Counted from the first letter of the stretch, positions 14,840 through 20,373 are shown. The stretch is DNA of 64,000 bases from an uncultured Verrucomicrobiae bacterium (GCA_963836315.1 CAWIJG010000002.1:867001-931000), one strand, 5' to 3'. Made by a program: numbers and translations. The notes: a model not told the origin generated them from the letters alone.

Positions 14840-16612
14840 TCACGGATTAACTCTCACCTGTCCGATGAGGTAAGTTGCCGGCGCAACAGGAACATCGTTG
14901 GTGACGGATATCTTTGCCGGATTGCTGACGAGGCTGCGATGACCGGTGCGGAACACCAGCCGGTTCAGCCAGGCCGTAGACTGTGCGAACGCGGCGTCCT
15001 TCAAAACCGGTTTGCCATCAAGCGTGACCGCAAATTTTCCAACAACGGCGTCAGCGTCGATCTGGAACGCCATCCACTGGTTGGCAGCATACAAGGCGCA
15101 ATCGACCGTGTTGCTTCCATCAACGGCGCGGATCTTTCCATCGTCGCCAAGGCTCAACCGCACGGGATGCGCGCCTCCCAGGTCGCTAAACAACTCGATT
15201 TCCATCAAGCCCCCGTTGGGCTGCATGGCAAACAGACGGAATGATGCGCTGACTTTTTTACTTTTCGGAAAAACTAGGGCCGCGACCGCATGCTCATATG
15301 GGTCACGGTCTTCGAGTCGCAAAGCCTTCGTCTTTCCGTGGTCCGTCGTTTCGACCACGGTTACCGGTGCCCATTGGGGACTGCAGATGTTCCACCCGGC
15401 AAAATCGTCGGCAGCCGGCCTCGTTCGCCCGGCATGCACGGGCACGGGGATTCGACTGACCCAGATGTCTTCCTTGCTCACGCTGTAGGCTACCCACAAG
15501 CCGGTGTCCTTCCACGAACCATCGTTGGACCATTCGGAAACGCCCCGCGCGTATTGCGGGCCCATGTTCTTATTCGCGCCTTCGTAGCGTTGAATCGGCA
15601 GTTCACCATGAACCACGCACATATCGCGGAAGGCGACGCCGTCATCACTGGTCACAATGACCAAAGGGAAACGCTTCTCTTTGTCGGGTTCATACAACAG
15701 GGCGAACCGGCCATCGCTCGTGCGTTGTCCCCAAACCTTGCCGTTTCCCGTGACCAGCGAAGGCGGACGGACCGGCTTGGACCACGTGCTGCCCTCGTCC
15801 TTGGAGATCGTGACCCAGCCTTTCTTGCCGATCCCCACCAAGGCGCCGTCCTTGCGGTGGAAAAACGACATCGCTTTCAACTGCATGCTTTTGTCATCCG
15901 ACTCATGCCACTTCATCCGGCGGTCGCCGAGCAGGTTGCCGAAATCCTGTTGTTCCAGAAAAGGGCGTTGATTCAGCAGTTGAACACACGCATCGACGAA
16001 TCCCTTGTCGGTCGAACTGCCGAACAGAGGAGGCCCGTCCTGTCCGTTGCCGGTTGAAGGCGCTGACAACGTGAATACGGGGCCTAACGTGTGATTGGCC
16101 AAAATTTCCCGCCCCACCAACGGACCTTTCAACGTTTCGCTGAGTTTGGTCAGTCCCAGCCGCAGTCCGGCAATTGCCAGCATCCGGCCATTGGTCGCCA
16201 GAAAGAAATGCATCCGCAGCGGGGTGGAGACGCCTTGGGGAAACAACTCCGCCGGCGCTGACCAATGCTCGCCGTCAGCCGATGTGCTGTACAATTCATG
16301 CCACGGCCAGACGTCCTCGTCTTTCTCACCGGAAGTCCAGGAGACGTATAGGCGTCCCTTCCAGCACGCCATGTCCACGTGGTGGTTATAGGTCCAGCCC
16401 TTGCCGTCGGCCAGACCCGGCGCGGTTCGCGTGGCACGAAACACCTCGATGTTCCACACGCCAACCGCCGGCGGCAGTCCGCCATCGGGTAAACTCAAAT
16501 CTAACTTGCCTTGCTCCGGTCCGTCAATGCGTAGGGCGTCTTGCGGAGTTGCCGTCGCCGCGGCAACCAGCATGAGTAGGAGGACGGGAATCAATGGGGA
16601 CGACAGTTTCAT
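14840..16612 (-). CDS. Secreted BNR/Asp-box sialidase-like (six-bladed beta-propeller) glycosidase
   Basis: Start ATG 16612 overlaps the upstream stop (ATGA at 16609-16612); signal peptide MKLSSPLIPVLLLMLVAAATA. Asp-box repeats STSADGEHWS, SKDEGSTWS, TSDDGVAF. Confidence 0.7.
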   Translation of the reverse strand: MKLSSPLIPVLLLMLVAAATATPQDALRIDGPEQGKLDLSLPDGGLPPAVGVWNIEVFRATRTAPGLADGKGWTYNHHVDMACWKGRLYVSWTSGEKDEDVWPWHELYSTSADGEHWSAPAELFPQGVSTPLRMHFFLATNGRMLAIAGLRLGLTKLSETLKGPLVGREILANHTLGPVFTLSAPSTGNGQDGPPLFGSSTDKGFVDACVQLLNQRPFLEQQDFGNLLGDRRMKWHESDDKSMQLKAMSFFHRKDGALVGIGKKGWVTISKDEGSTWSKPVRPPSLVTGNGKVWGQRTSDGRFALLYEPDKEKRFPLVIVTSDDGVAFRDMCVVHGELPIQRYEGANKNMGPQYARGVSEWSNDGSWKDTGLWVAYSVSKEDIWVSRIPVPVHAGRTRPAADDFAGWNICSPQWAPVTVVETTDHGKTKALRLEDRDPYEHAVAALVFPKSKKVSASFRLFAMQPNGGLMEIELFSDLGGAHPVRLSLGDDGKIRAVDGSNTVDCALYAANQWMAFQIDADAVVGKFAVTLDGKPVLKDAAFAQSTAWLNRLVFRTGHRSLVSNPAKISVTNDVPVAPATYLIGQVRVNP

Positions 16613-19600: not shown

Positions 19601-20373
19601 TCGATGCCGGAATTCGGATTGGGCAATCCCAGCGACTCCAGTGCACTCCATTTTTCCCCGCCGTCACCCGACCACGTCGTGGCGATCACGCCGTTGCGCG
19701 TCCGGCAAAGGGCCTGCAGCCGGCCATCGCGATGGAACAACACGCTCGGCTGGATCGCGTCAAGTTTGTCGCCTTTTCCCACCGGCCCGATAATCTGCCA
19801 GGTCCGGCCCGCGTCGCGCGTGACTTCGAAATTCACCCGCCAGCCCGTTTCCGTCCCTTCGGCGCTCGACGGACACAACCAGGCGCCATCGGCGAGAAGC
19901 ACCGGTTTGTTCTTGATCGGGCCCAGCACGCCTTCAGGCAACCGTACAGGTTCGCTCCAGCTTCTCCCACCATCGGCGGATTTCATCATCATTCCCCACC
20001 ACTGGCTCGGCGACGGCCCAACTTTGTAAAACAACACCAGCGGACCGTTCTTCGGCTGAAACAGGACGGGATTCCATGTCGGCTGCCGGGTGCCATCCGG
20101 CTGTACGCCGTTGGCGACCTCGACCGCGTCCAGCCAGCGTCCGTCCTCCTGCCGCGCCAGCCAGATGCCGACGTCGGGGGCGCGCTCGCGCGTACCGCCA
20201 AACCAGGCCGCGACCAGTTTACCGGGCGCGACCTCGGCGATGGTGGAGGCATGGCACTGCGGATACGGCGCGTGCTCGTTGATGAATGCGAATGCAACCA
20301 CTGCAACCGGCCGCGGCTCTGTCGCCAGTCCGGTGGCGGCGAGAAGGAGAAAGCACCACAATCGTGTTTTCAT
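16609..20373 (-). CDS. Chimeric enzyme: N-terminal BNR/sialidase-like domain fused to GH78 alpha-L-rhamnosidase
   Basis: Start ATG 20373 overlaps the MFS stop (ATGA); signal peptide MKTRLWCFLLLAATGLA. N-terminal ~360 aa has Asp-boxes (SADGGRSWS, TRDAGRTWQ, SGDGGEKWS, SSDGVKW). The C-terminal ~890 aa has the GH78-like TDCPHREKLGWLEQ motif. Confidence 0.75.
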   Translation of the reverse strand: MKTRLWCFLLLAATGLATEPRPVAVVAFAFINEHAPYPQCHASTIAEVAPGKLVAAWFGGTRERAPDVGIWLARQEDGRWLDAVEVANGVQPDGTRQPTWNPVLFQPKNGPLVLFYKVGPSPSQWWGMMMKSADGGRSWSEPVRLPEGVLGPIKNKPVLLADGAWLCPSSAEGTETGWRVNFEVTRDAGRTWQIIGPVGKGDKLDAIQPSVLFHRDGRLQALCRTRNGVIATTWSGDGGEKWSALESLGLPNPNSGIDAVTLSDGRQLLVYNHSVPPPERPTKGVRYPLDVAISSDGVKWQHVLTLEAEPCEYGYAYPAVIQASDGLIHITYTWNRQHIKHVVLDPKKLMVAEGLESSDAGLHVTDPRCEFATDPLGIDVGQPRLFWRVASDQRGQRQTAWQVLVASAAEILAQDRGDLWDSGRVASDETTFIRYAGAPLASSQPVFWKVRAWDCDGHASPWSANATWTMGLLKPADWKGVWIAAPGATESLLLRHEFSVRPGLRRAVVHVCGLGQYELEFNGAKAGDDLLSPGWTNYERTTLYDTRDVTDLLREGTNTVGVILGNGMYNVVRRNRFVKFTGSFGPLRAILHLRLEYADGTVEFVGTDGTWRTLTGPITFNNIYGGEDTDARLEPAGWTQPGFDDHAWLRAVAIIRAGDTLRGHSDGTEPLRAIETRRPVAAQAFPDGTVVYDLGQNVSTMPRVRVSGPAGSTVRLTPAEVVNADGTINRSTMGGESRGSSWWQYTKATDGEETWFPKFFYVGCRYLKAEFLPPEAGGPAPLGKTKRLPRIASIKGVVVHSSAAPLGRFATSNELLNRIRTLVRWAQRSNMVSILTDCPHREKLGWLEQYHLNGPAIRYEFDVARIFTKGMHDMADAQADDGFVPTTAPEYAKFKGTFRTATEWGSAFILVPWQQYQFTGDLDLLRAHFDAMKRYFAYLETRATDDIVSEGLGDWCDLGPKKPGAAQLTPPPVTATAFYFTDATILAKAATLLGRADDARHYNRRAGRIRESYNRHFFHSDTGSYATGSQCANALPLVMNIVEPACRARILAALVRDVEQHGYAMTAGDVGFRYLLQALAEGGRSDVVYRMINQDDKPGYGYQLRKGATSLTESWDANLSSSHNHFMLGQITEWFYRDLAGIDGDLTGPGFKKIMLRPQPVGDLTWVEAGYESIHGPIAVRWEHDGERFVLKATIPANTTATVFVPARADTAVREGGAPAEQRPGVKFLRREGDRAVFAVESGSYTFESQFGHS

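What the first reader, a model, noticed from the sequence alone, without database searches (positions are those of the whole stretch)
16609..20373. Single 1254-aa ORF fusing a BNR/Asp-box sialidase-like beta-propeller to a GH78 alpha-L-rhamnosidase
Seen in sequence: one uninterrupted reading frame has four Asp-box repeats in its first ~360 residues and then a full-length GH78-like region with the TDCPHREKLGWLEQ motif. GH78 enzymes are usually stand-alone, so a two-catalytic-domain protein suggests sequential removal of two different residues from one substrate. The next gene downstream encodes a second stand-alone BNR protein.
Basis: partly seen in the sequence, partly recalled or inferred. 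Interest (0 to 1): 0.62.

Follow-up and report, generated by a model that had tools for sequence, protein, structure and literature searches.

The report
Fused Kdo-hydrolase-like and rhamnosidase enzyme
This is a real, secreted two-enzyme fusion (a sialidase-fold domain of the type reported to be a Kdo hydrolase, joined to a GH78 rhamnosidase) that most likely strips the rhamnose-Kdo side chain from the plant pectin rhamnogalacturonan-II; the same domain pair is already known, in the opposite order, in the gut bacterium Bacteroides thetaiotaomicron (BT1013).

Summary
A 1254-aa ORF on the minus strand (16609-20373) encodes a signal peptide, a BNR_2 six-bladed propeller (aa 18-349), a 14-aa linker and a complete five-domain GH78 rhamnosidase. 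At least 14 full-length relatives from independent assemblies carry the same fusion, so it is not an assembly artefact. In Opitutaceae and Planctomycetota the two halves are separate adjacent genes in the same order, so this lineage fused neighbouring genes.

The combination is not new. B. thetaiotaomicron BT1013 is reported as GH78 plus a C-terminal Kdo hydrolase (GH33) acting on RG-II side chain C (Rha-α1,5-Kdo). The window's propeller is 43% identical over its full length to the propeller of the Bacteroides positional orthologue of BT1013. It shares that family's conserved residues.

The next gene is not a generic BNR protein. It is a homologue of the GH143 Dha-hydrolase part of BT1020 (E 1e-80). 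A GH106 rhamnosidase and an acid-sugar-type MFS transporter lie in the same operon.

Best reading: a periplasmic bifunctional exo-glycosidase for RG-II chain C, arising as an independent, order-swapped fusion. It is a new variant of a known kind, of modest interest. Activity is untested.

The parts
20370..21641 (-). MFS transporter of the anion:cation symporter (D-galactonate transporter) type; first gene of the operon
   Evidence: Pfam MFS_1 1e-61. Best NCBIfam match is TIGR00893 D-galactonate transporter, 7e-45, below its cutoff. Its TGA overlaps the ATG of the fusion as ATGA. The MFS-plus-fusion pair is conserved in L012, L013 and (unfused) L017.
16609..20373 (-). The 1254-aa fusion ORF (stop codon 16609-16611)
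20323..20373 (-). Signal peptide, aa 1-17 (MKTRLWCFLLLAATGLA)
   Evidence: Read directly from the sequence. This stretch has low pLDDT in the model. No signal-peptide predictor was run.
19327..20322 (-). GH33-like six-bladed beta-propeller (BNR_2), aa 18-349; candidate Kdo hydrolase
   Evidence: Pfam BNR_2 8e-90. AF2 pLDDT 91.9, pTM 0.89. Foldseek TM 0.73-0.76 to GH33 sialidases. 43% identity, E 2e-90, to the C-terminal propeller of the Bacteroides BT1013 positional orthologue.
19285..19326 (-). Inter-domain linker, aa 350-363 (MVAEGLESSDAGLH)
   Evidence: Variable in sequence and length among fusion orthologues. It occupies the place of the stop codon, spacer and signal peptide of the separate genes.
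16612..19284 (-). Complete GH78 alpha-L-rhamnosidase, aa 364-1254 (Ig_Rha78A_N, N-domain, concanavalin-like, (alpha/alpha)6 catalytic domain, C-domain)
   Evidence: Pfam. PDB 6I60 1e-157 and 3W5M 1e-149. E842 and E1113 align with the SaRha78A general acid E636 and base E895.
16960..17955 (-). GH78 six-hairpin catalytic domain, aa 807-1138, containing TDCPHREKLGWLEQ (aa 836-849) and LTESWDA (aa 1111-1117)
14840..16612 (-). Secreted 590-aa homologue of the N-terminal (GH143, Dha-hydrolase) part of BT1020; its ATG overlaps the fusion's TGA
   Evidence: Pfam Beta-prop_BT_1020 3e-35 plus Sialidase-like_CBM. PDB 5MQR E 1.2e-80, chain residues 22-594. ATGA overlap.
12681..14831 (-). Secreted 716-aa protein with no detectable family; same operon
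   Evidence: No Pfam, NCBIfam or PDB hit. 89% identical at the same operon position in L013.
10057..12654 (-). GH106 alpha-L-rhamnosidase (865 aa from MRLFCAILFGG...)
   Evidence: Pfam Glyco_hydro_106 1e-87. NCBIfam AlphaRhamBT4145 1e-119, below its cutoff.
8527..10044 (-). Sugar-type ABC transporter ATPase (AraG/XylG/RbsA-like)
   Evidence: also present after the GH106 gene in L013
7189..8418 (-). Second MFS transporter; membership of the operon is uncertain

Best explanation
The ORF encodes a secreted (probably periplasmic) bifunctional exo-glycosidase of a Verrucomicrobiota-like bacterium. It most likely dismantles side chain C of the plant pectin rhamnogalacturonan-II, α-L-Rha-(1→5)-α-D-Kdo-(2→3)-GalA.

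Proposed mechanism (inferred):
1. The C-terminal GH78 module removes the terminal rhamnose. It is inverting, with general acid Glu842 and general base Glu1113.
2. The N-terminal GH33-like propeller, with Tyr317 at the nucleophile position, then cleaves the exposed Kdo ketoside from the galacturonan backbone.
3. The translationally coupled acid-sugar-type MFS transporter imports a released acidic sugar.
4. The next genes (GH143-like Dha hydrolase, an unknown 716-aa protein, GH106 rhamnosidase) would handle the related Dha-containing chain D and other rhamnosides.

Origin: the protein arose in this lineage by fusion of two neighbouring genes (BNR_2 then GH78), with loss of the stop codon, the spacer and the GH78 signal peptide. 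This was independent of the opposite-order GH78-GH33 fusion of Bacteroidota (BT1013).

What is shown: the architecture, the fold, the conserved residues, the homology, the synteny and the reality of the fusion. What is inferred: the substrates, the order of action and the role of the transporter.
For: - **Architecture and integrity:**
- **The fusion is real:** 14 full-length clusters at 64-90% identity. The same operon is present at 90% identity in L013. Linkers vary but stay open.
- **Ancestral split state:** BNR_2 followed by GH78 as adjacent, same-strand genes in Opitutaceae GCA_036261745, Opitutaceae EW11 (19-nt gap) and the planctomycete Fontivita pretiosa. Their GH78 proteins are 67-71% identical to the window's.
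- **Known precedent:** BT1013 is a GH78 rhamnosidase plus a C-terminal Kdo hydrolase, both on RG-II chain C (review PMC13501991). GH33 lists Kdo hydrolase (PMC9120202 and PMC11214529).
- **Abundance of the reverse order:** all top 120 hits of a profile of reverse-order proteins carry GH78 plus BNR_2, and the named ones are mostly Bacteroidota, including Bacteroides.
- **Positional orthologue of BT1013:** P0495 (Bacteroides acidifaciens cluster) lies in the order GH95, GH88/105, apiosidase, [GH78-BNR_2]..., GH28. That matches BT1010 to BT1013 as described.
- **Homology to that orthologue:** the propeller is 43% identical, E 2e-90, over aa 21-349. It shares H41, E63, D67, Q208, R224, R286 and Y317.
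- **RG-II context of the propeller family:** it sits with apiosidase, BT1020-like, GH141, GH95, GH43 and GH2 genes. In the window it sits beside a BT1020 N-part homologue, E 1e-80, and a GH106.
- **Fold:** AF2 pLDDT 91.9; sialidase fold TM about 0.75.
- **GH78 catalytic Glu pair is conserved**.
- **ATGA overlaps couple MFS, fusion and GH143-like genes**.
Against: - No enzymology exists for this protein or any same-order relative.
- BT1013's own sequence could not be retrieved. A Bacteroides positional orthologue was used, and the BT1013 assignment comes from a review, not the primary paper.
- The window's GH78 is only 27-33% identical to the GH78 of the reverse-order fusions. Its specificity for Rha-α1,5-Kdo is therefore inferred from linkage only.
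- The propeller family is very large (6121 representatives at 50% identity). It is also fused to sulfatases, GH3, an MCP signalling domain and others.
- Its closest stand-alone relatives (80-82% identity) lie after prfC with no CAZymes nearby. The family therefore probably has more than one substrate.
- The window island lacks other RG-II markers such as apiosidase or GH95.
- The family has Gln where sialidases have the general-base Glu, so the catalytic mechanism is not the textbook one.
Confidence: 0.6

Rival explanations
1. The protein is a genuine bifunctional glycosidase, but its substrate is not RG-II chain C. The propeller would remove a different 2-keto-3-deoxy acid (Dha, Kdn, sialic or another nonulosonic acid, or Kdo in a bacterial or algal glycan). 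The GH78 would remove rhamnose from that other polymer, for example Kdo/rhamnose capsules, LPS cores or prasinophyte scale polysaccharides.
For: - The propeller family is huge and is joined to many partners, including sulfatase, FGE-sulfatase, GH3 and MCP domains that do not fit RG-II.
- The nearest stand-alone relatives sit in non-CAZyme contexts.
- The GH78 is from a different GH78 lineage than the BT1013-type one.
- The window island has no apiosidase, GH95 or GH28.
Against: - The neighbouring gene is a strong homologue of the RG-II-specific BT1020 Dha-hydrolase part.
- Unfused orthologous pairs sit inside clusters with apiosidase, GH95, GH43 and DUF6298.
- A 68%-identical propeller fused to GH2 lies in the same kind of cluster.
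- The only characterised enzyme that pairs these two domain families, BT1013, is an RG-II chain C enzyme.
Confidence: 0.27
2. The N-terminal propeller is catalytically dead and serves as a carbohydrate-binding or targeting module for the GH78.
For: The canonical sialidase general-base Glu is Gln208. The RIP arginine motif is absent, with CHAST in its place.
Against: - The same substitutions occur in the Bacteroides BT1013-type domain, whose B. thetaiotaomicron counterpart is reported to be an active Kdo hydrolase.
- The nucleophile Tyr and two Arg are invariant across 45 diverse family members.
- The domain occurs very widely as a stand-alone secreted protein, which is not typical for a binding module.
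Confidence: 0.08
3. The fusion is an assembly or sequencing artefact that joins two adjacent genes.
For: In related genomes the two genes are adjacent, with gaps as short as 19 nt, so one missed stop codon could mimic a fusion.
Against: - Fourteen clusters from independent JGI, ENA and NCBI assemblies carry the fusion at 64-90% identity.
- Their linkers differ in length (3-25 aa) and sequence, and all lack the GH78 signal peptide.
- That pattern requires a real deletion, not a single base error.
Confidence: 0.02

Closest known systems
Bacteroides thetaiotaomicron BT1013 (GH78 α-L-rhamnosidase plus C-terminal GH33 Kdo hydrolase; RG-II side chain C)
   Same: It has the same two domain families in one secreted polypeptide. 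The propeller is 43% identical (E 2e-90) to that of the Bacteroides positional orthologue, with the same conserved residues. It is associated with RG-II genes. The presumed logic is the same: remove Rha, then Kdo.
   Different: The domain order is reversed (propeller first). The GH78 is only 33% identical and belongs to another GH78 lineage (GWLEQ versus PWLGD after the acid Glu). The fusion arose independently from adjacent BNR_2 and GH78 genes. The host is Verrucomicrobiota-like with an MFS transporter, not a SusC/D PUL. Activity is untested. The comparison used an orthologue, not BT1013 itself.
Unfused BNR_2 plus GH78 gene pairs of Opitutaceae and Planctomycetota (e.g. Opitutaceae EW11, GCA_036261745, Fontivita pretiosa)
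   Same: The gene order is the same (transporter, BNR_2, GH78). The BNR_2 in L002 is 72% identical, and the GH78s are 67-71% identical.
   Different: They are two separate secreted proteins, each with its own signal peptide. Here the stop codon, spacer and second signal peptide are replaced by a 14-aa linker.
BT1020 (GH143 Dha hydrolase plus GH142 β-L-arabinofuranosidase; RG-II chain D; PDB 5MQR)
   Same: It is another two-catalytic-domain RG-II enzyme that pairs a sialidase-like propeller acting on a 2-keto-3-deoxy acid with the exo-glycosidase that uncaps it. A homologue of its GH143 part is the very next gene.
   Different: The propeller family is different (the window's N-domain matches 5MQR only at E 0.02 to 2e-7). 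The partner catalytic domain is also different.
Classical GH33 exo-sialidases (e.g. S. pneumoniae NanB/NanC, M. viridifaciens sialidase)
   Same: It has the six-bladed propeller fold (TM about 0.75), Asp boxes, the nucleophile Tyr (Y317 = NanB Y653) and two of the three Arg.
   Different: Sequence identity is only 12-19%. Gln208 replaces the general-base Glu (NanB E541; PMC6377674). There is no RIP motif; an invariant CHAST with His41 stands there instead. There is no inserted or lectin domain.
KdhAB/KdoH LPS Kdo hydrolase of Francisella, Helicobacter and Legionella
   Same: It is a sialidase-like catalytic subunit that removes Kdo (PMC3573668).
   Different: That enzyme trims the cell's own LPS and needs a small inner-membrane partner. 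No such partner gene lies next to the window ORF, and the context here is glycan catabolism. No sequence comparison was possible.
Structurally characterised GH78 rhamnosidases (DtRha 6I60, SaRha78A 3W5M)
   Same: The full multi-domain GH78 architecture and the catalytic Glu pair are conserved.
   Different: They are stand-alone enzymes. SaRha78A Asp643 is Gln849 here.

Membership tests
GH78 α-L-rhamnosidase | Multi-domain GH78 architecture with an (α/α)6 catalytic domain | tested here: met
   All five Pfam GH78 domains are above their cutoffs. PDB 6I60 E 1e-157 and 3W5M E 1e-149.
GH78 α-L-rhamnosidase | Catalytic general acid and general base glutamates (SaRha78A E636 and E895) | tested here: met
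   E842 and E1113 align with E636 and E895. D837, R841, W846 and H1125 are also conserved. D643 is Gln849 (residue roles from PMC7263609).
GH78 α-L-rhamnosidase | Hydrolysis of α-L-rhamnosides | not testable with these tools
   Needs an enzyme assay.
GH33 / sialidase-fold propellers | Six-bladed β-propeller with Asp-box repeats | tested here: met
   AF2 pLDDT 91.9. Foldseek TM 0.73-0.76 to GH33 structures. Three canonical Asp boxes and one degenerate box.
GH33 / sialidase-fold propellers | Nucleophile Tyr | tested here: met
   Y317 aligns with NanB Y653 and is invariant in 45 diverse family members.
GH33 / sialidase-fold propellers | General-base Glu paired with the Tyr | tested here: not met
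   Q208 aligns with NanB E541 and with the corresponding NanC Glu. Gln is at least 90% conserved in the family.
GH33 / sialidase-fold propellers | Arginine triad including the N-terminal RIP motif | tested here: inconclusive
   R224 and R286 align with NanB R557 and R619 (NanB arginine numbering is from memory). No RIP motif is present; an invariant His41 in CHAST occupies the expected region, but no alignment covers it.
BT1013-type bifunctional RG-II chain C enzyme | GH78 and GH33-like Kdo-hydrolase domains in one polypeptide | tested here: met
BT1013-type bifunctional RG-II chain C enzyme | Domain order GH78 then propeller | tested here: not met
   The propeller is N-terminal here. All 120 top reverse-order proteins have it C-terminal.
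BT1013-type bifunctional RG-II chain C enzyme | Propeller homologous to the BT1013 propeller with the same conserved residues | tested here: met
   43% identity, E 2e-90, full length, to P0495, the positional orthologue in a Bacteroides RG-II PUL.
BT1013-type bifunctional RG-II chain C enzyme | GH78 orthologous to the BT1013 GH78 | tested here: inconclusive
   33% identity to P0495, while an unrelated stand-alone Chitinophagaceae GH78 scores 39%. No phylogeny was built.
BT1013-type bifunctional RG-II chain C enzyme | Location among RG-II degradation genes | tested here: inconclusive
   GH143-like and GH106 genes are adjacent, but there is no apiosidase, GH95 or GH28 in the window. Unfused orthologues do sit in such clusters.
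BT1013-type bifunctional RG-II chain C enzyme | Release of Rha then Kdo from RG-II chain C | not testable with these tools
   Needs an enzyme assay on RG-II.
KdhAB/KdoH LPS Kdo hydrolase | Sialidase-like subunit encoded with a small inner-membrane partner | tested here: not met
   The neighbours are an MFS transporter and a GH143-like gene. No small membrane protein gene is adjacent. The feature is taken from PMC3573668.

The most novel reading that the evidence does not exclude
The propeller clade to which this domain belongs (including the BT1013-type Kdo hydrolase) is a mechanistically distinct branch of the sialidase superfamily. It would run the Tyr nucleophile without the canonical Glu base and with His in place of the first triad arginine. 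In environmental Verrucomicrobiota and Planctomycetota it would act on ulosonic-acid glycans beyond RG-II. The window protein would then be a rhamnose/ulosonic-acid 'uncapping and release' enzyme with a substrate not yet described.
Probability: 0.15. Interest if true: 0.55.

Novelty: new variant of a known kind. Interest (0 to 1): 0.3.

Why it matters
- **Function link.** Two independent fusions of the same two domain families, in opposite orders and in distant phyla, plus conserved adjacency where they are unfused, form a strong 'Rosetta-stone' argument. This GH33-like clade and a GH78 work on the same substrate.
- **Annotation.** That supports annotating thousands of proteins now labelled 'sialidase/neuraminidase' in soil and freshwater Verrucomicrobiota, Planctomycetota and Bacteroidota as likely Kdo-type ketosidases rather than sialidases. 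This affects how 'sialidase' counts in metagenomes are read.
- **RG-II outside Bacteroidota.** It points to a compact non-Bacteroidota operon for the two keto-deoxy-acid side chains of RG-II.
- **A candidate new glycosidase.** That operon contains a conserved 716-aa protein of no known family.
- **Limit.** The enzyme type itself is already known, so the finding is incremental.

Tried and rejected
- **Primary paper.** The RG-II paper (Ndeh et al. 2017) could not be retrieved by PMC id or DOI. The BT1013 assignment rests on a review and two other papers.
- **A wrong recollection.** My first memory, that BT1012 is the Kdo hydrolase, was wrong. BT1012 is the apiosidase.
- **Genome scan.** The single genome-contig scan with P0264 returned only 5 weak loci and not B. 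thetaiotaomicron. BT1013's own sequence was never obtained, so a positional orthologue was used.
- **N-terminal active-site mapping.** A profile of only the N-terminal third of the propeller, meant to map the RIP and acid/base positions onto a solved sialidase, hit only GH93 arabinanases. H41, E63 and D67 equivalences remain positional guesses.
- **The 716-aa neighbour.** There was no Pfam hit even at E ≤ 10 apart from a meaningless GH65 fragment. There was no NCBIfam or PDB hit. The single-sequence AF2 model has pLDDT 35 and is unusable. hhalign against the GH142-like part of a BT1020 homologue gave probability 0.2%. The idea that it is a GH142-like arabinofuranosidase is therefore unsupported.
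- **Assembly artefact.** Rejected.
- **Longer start at 20574.** Rejected because the extension lies inside the MFS gene and precedes a clear signal peptide.
- **Full-length model.** A structure prediction of both domains together was not possible (1254 aa exceeds the 1200 limit).

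
Full report
**1. The observation**

The ORF lies on the minus strand. The maximal ORF is 16609-20574. The ATG at 20373 opens a typical signal peptide (MKTRLWCFLLLAATGLA) and overlaps the stop of the upstream MFS gene as ATGA. The longer version would run inside that gene.

Pfam finds BNR_2 at aa 51-330 (8e-90) and all five GH78 domains from aa 364 to 1214, including the six-hairpin catalytic domain at 2e-99. NCBIfam sees only rhamnosidase models, below their equivalog cutoffs. There are three canonical Asp boxes and one degenerate box. 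TDCPHREKLGWLEQ is at aa 836-849. The inter-domain junction (aa 350-363) is window 19285-19326.

**2. The fusion is real**

A search of 5.8 billion proteins found 14 clusters at 64-90% identity and 91-100% coverage with the same architecture. They come from JGI, ENA and NCBI assemblies, and one is named Verrucomicrobiae bacterium. A 90%-identical relative has the same five-gene operon (L013). A 76%-identical one keeps only the MFS-plus-fusion pair (L012).

Across these orthologues the flanks of the junction are conserved, while the linker varies from about 3 to 25 residues and never contains a stop.

**3. How the fusion arose**

Stand-alone versions of both halves are far more common than the fusion.
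- Stand-alone GH78 proteins of about 900-1000 aa are 60-76% identical to the window's.
- BNR_2 proteins of about 350 aa are 67-83% identical.
This is indirect.

Three further cases were inspected directly.
- Opitutaceae GCA_036261745: SSF transporter, BNR_2 (350 aa), GH78.
- Opitutaceae EW11: DUF6298, apiosidase, GH43, MFS, BNR_2, then GH78 after a 19-nt gap, then GH95.
- The planctomycete Fontivita pretiosa: BNR_2, GH78, GH106.

The separate BNR_2 proteins end at ...LDPKKL. The separate GH78 proteins start with their own signal peptide followed by LRVxDL(R/K)CE. In the fusion, a short linker replaces the stop, the spacer and the second signal peptide. The window protein is therefore a lineage-specific fusion of neighbouring operon genes.

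**4. What the N-terminal domain is**

Sequence searches against solved structures give only distant GH33 sialidases (NanB 2e-9; with a family profile 1e-16) and, very weakly, BT1020. An AlphaFold2 model built on 62 sequences is confident (pLDDT 91.9, pTM 0.89). It matches an uncharacterised Dyadobacter protein (5HX0) and then many GH33 sialidases at TM 0.73-0.76 with 12-19% identity.

Residue mapping against NanB gives this picture (catalytic Tyr653, Glu541 and Asp270 from PMC6377674):

| Window residue | NanB equivalent | Status |
|---|---|---|
| Tyr317 | Tyr653 (nucleophile) | conserved |
| Arg224 | Arg557 | conserved |
| Arg286 | Arg619 (profile alignment) | conserved |
| Gln208 | Glu541 (general base) | replaced |

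The NanB arginine numbers are from memory. Gln208 is at least 90% conserved in 45 diverse family members. Instead of the RIP motif there is an invariant CHAST with His41. I could not align this region to any sialidase, so its equivalence to the first triad arginine is only a positional guess.

**5. The link to a known enzyme**

A 2026 review lists B. thetaiotaomicron BT1013 as a GH78 α-L-rhamnosidase (N-terminus) plus a Kdo hydrolase (C-terminus), both validated on RG-II chain C. It lists BT1020 as a GH143 Dha hydrolase (N-terminus) plus a GH142 β-L-arabinofuranosidase on chain D. Other papers list Kdo hydrolase among GH33 activities and as an RG-II activity.

A search of 1.84 billion representatives showed 6121 relatives of the propeller. 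Pfam scans of the long hits showed that some carry the propeller at the C-terminus of a GH78. A profile of three of those returned 120 of 120 top hits with GH78 plus BNR_2. They are about 1250-1290 aa long, and most named ones are Bacteroidota: Bacteroides acidifaciens, B. graminisolvens, Proteiniphilum, Chitinophagaceae and others.

The B. acidifaciens-cluster protein P0495 lies in the order GH95, GH88/105, apiosidase, [GH78-BNR_2]..., DUF3826, GH28. This matches BT1010 (α-L-galactosidase), BT1011 (unsaturated glycoside hydrolase), BT1012 (apiosidase) and then BT1013, as described in a 2026 preprint. P0495 is therefore the positional orthologue of BT1013.

BLASTP of the window protein against P0495 gives two results.
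- Propeller aa 21-349 versus 908-1288: 43% identity, E 2e-90. His41, Glu63, Asp67, Gln208, Arg224, Arg286 and Tyr317 are all shared.
- GH78 aa 360-1206 versus 22-887: 33% identity, E 1e-142.

The GH78 halves are thus more distant. A stand-alone Chitinophagaceae GH78 scores higher, at 39%. Together with the reversed order, this indicates two independent fusions.

**6. The GH78 half**

It aligns end to end with DtRha (6I60) and SaRha78A (3W5M). Glu842 and Glu1113 correspond to the SaRha78A general acid Glu636 and general base Glu895 (roles from PMC7263609). Asp837, Arg841, Trp846 and His1125 are also conserved. SaRha78A Asp643 is Gln849 here (GWLEQ), a feature of this subclade.

**7. Context in the window**

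On the minus strand the genes run as follows.

| Coordinates | Gene | Evidence |
|---|---|---|
| 20370-21641 | MFS, anion:cation symporter type | best NCBIfam match D-galactonate transporter |
| 16609-20373 | the fusion | see above |
| 14840-16612 | homologue of BT1020 residues 22-594 | PDB 5MQR, E 1.2e-80; Pfam Beta-prop_BT_1020 plus Sialidase-like_CBM |
| 12681-14831 | secreted 716-aa protein, no family | |
| 10057-12654 | GH106 rhamnosidase | |
| 8527-10044 | sugar ABC ATPase | |
| 7189-8418 | second MFS | |

The first three genes are linked by ATGA overlaps. The rest of the window is housekeeping. The island looks specialised for the two RG-II side chains that end in 2-keto-3-deoxy acids (C: Rha-Kdo; D: Araf-Dha).

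The propeller family recurs in RG-II-type clusters elsewhere.
- With apiosidase, a full BT1020 homologue, GH141 and GH2 in L005.
- With DUF6298, a GH142-like protein, GH43 and GH95, as a GH2-propeller fusion that is 68% identical in the propeller, in L018.

A preprint notes that a Verrucomicrobia species has a nearly complete RG-II degradome.

**8. Caveats**

- The family is large and promiscuous in its partners: sulfatase, FGE, GH3, pectate lyase, esterase and even an MCP.
- The closest stand-alone relatives (80-82% identity) follow prfC with no CAZymes nearby.
- The window lacks other RG-II markers.
- Nothing has been assayed.

I therefore put 0.6 on the RG-II chain C reading and about 0.27 on another rhamnose/ulosonic-acid substrate. 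A non-catalytic propeller or an assembly artefact is unlikely.

**9. Verdict**

The architecture is an order-swapped, independently evolved counterpart of a known bifunctional RG-II enzyme, so this is a new variant of a known kind and of modest interest (0.3).

Three side observations have more potential. First, the catalytic apparatus of the whole clade is non-canonical, with Gln in place of the Glu base. Second, the operon holds a 716-aa protein with no family. Third, many 'sialidase' annotations in environmental genomes are probably misleading.

Noticed in passing
window 12681-14831 (-): A secreted 716-aa protein sits between the GH143-like and GH106 genes. It has no Pfam, NCBIfam or PDB match and is 89% conserved at the same position in L013. 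Secondary-structure prediction suggests a β-rich N-terminal part and a helical C-terminal part. It may be an undescribed glycosidase (a guess: the β-L-arabinofuranosidase needed for RG-II chain D), but hhalign against a GH142-like sequence was negative.
   Followed up: partly
window 14840-16612 (-): The gene after the fusion is a homologue of the GH143 Dha-hydrolase part of BT1020 (5MQR, E 1e-80). It lacks the GH142 half that BT1020 carries. So here the 'fused in Bacteroides' and 'split' states are swapped relative to the Kdo/rhamnosidase pair.
   Followed up: partly
window 19750-19752 (Gln208) and 20251-20253 (His41) of the fusion ORF: The whole propeller clade, including the Bacteroides BT1013-type domain, has Gln where sialidases have the general-base Glu. 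It also has an invariant His in a CHAST motif where the RIP arginine is expected. How the Tyr nucleophile is activated is unexplained.
   Followed up: partly
P0252 and P0395-P0403 (reverse-order relatives); L005 14195-16513: Some Bacteroidota GH78-propeller proteins (about 1535 aa) carry a third, C-terminal xylose-isomerase-like TIM barrel (AP_endonuc_2). In L005 the same domain is the next gene. This looks like a third functionally linked partner of unknown role.
   Followed up: no
P0242, P0256, P0261, P0272, P0282, P0283, P0309, P0359 (family representatives): The same propeller clade is fused to GH2, sulfatase, FGE-sulfatase, an MCP chemoreceptor signalling domain, pectate lyase, an esterase and GH3. 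The GH2 fusion lies in an RG-II-type cluster (L018). The sulfatase fusion does not (L019).
   Followed up: partly
P0121 (377 aa), P0031/P0041 (about 1035 aa): Derived forms of the same-order fusion exist. In one, the propeller is joined directly to the last 25 or so residues of the GH78, which is either an internal deletion or a misassembly. Two others lack the Ig_Rha78A_N domain.
   Followed up: no
L014 8001-9149; L015 8001-9125: The closest stand-alone relatives of the propeller (80-82% identity) sit immediately after prfC (release factor 3) with no carbohydrate genes nearby. This hints at a second, non-catabolic role, for example trimming of the cell's own Kdo.
   Followed up: no
window 20370-20373 and 16609-16612: ATGA stop/start overlaps link the MFS gene, the fusion and the GH143-like gene, indicating translational coupling.
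   Followed up: yes
window 1878-3623 (-): An aldo/keto reductase and a PfkB-family sugar kinase lie adjacent to each other. Whether they take part in keto-deoxy sugar acid catabolism was not examined.
   Followed up: no
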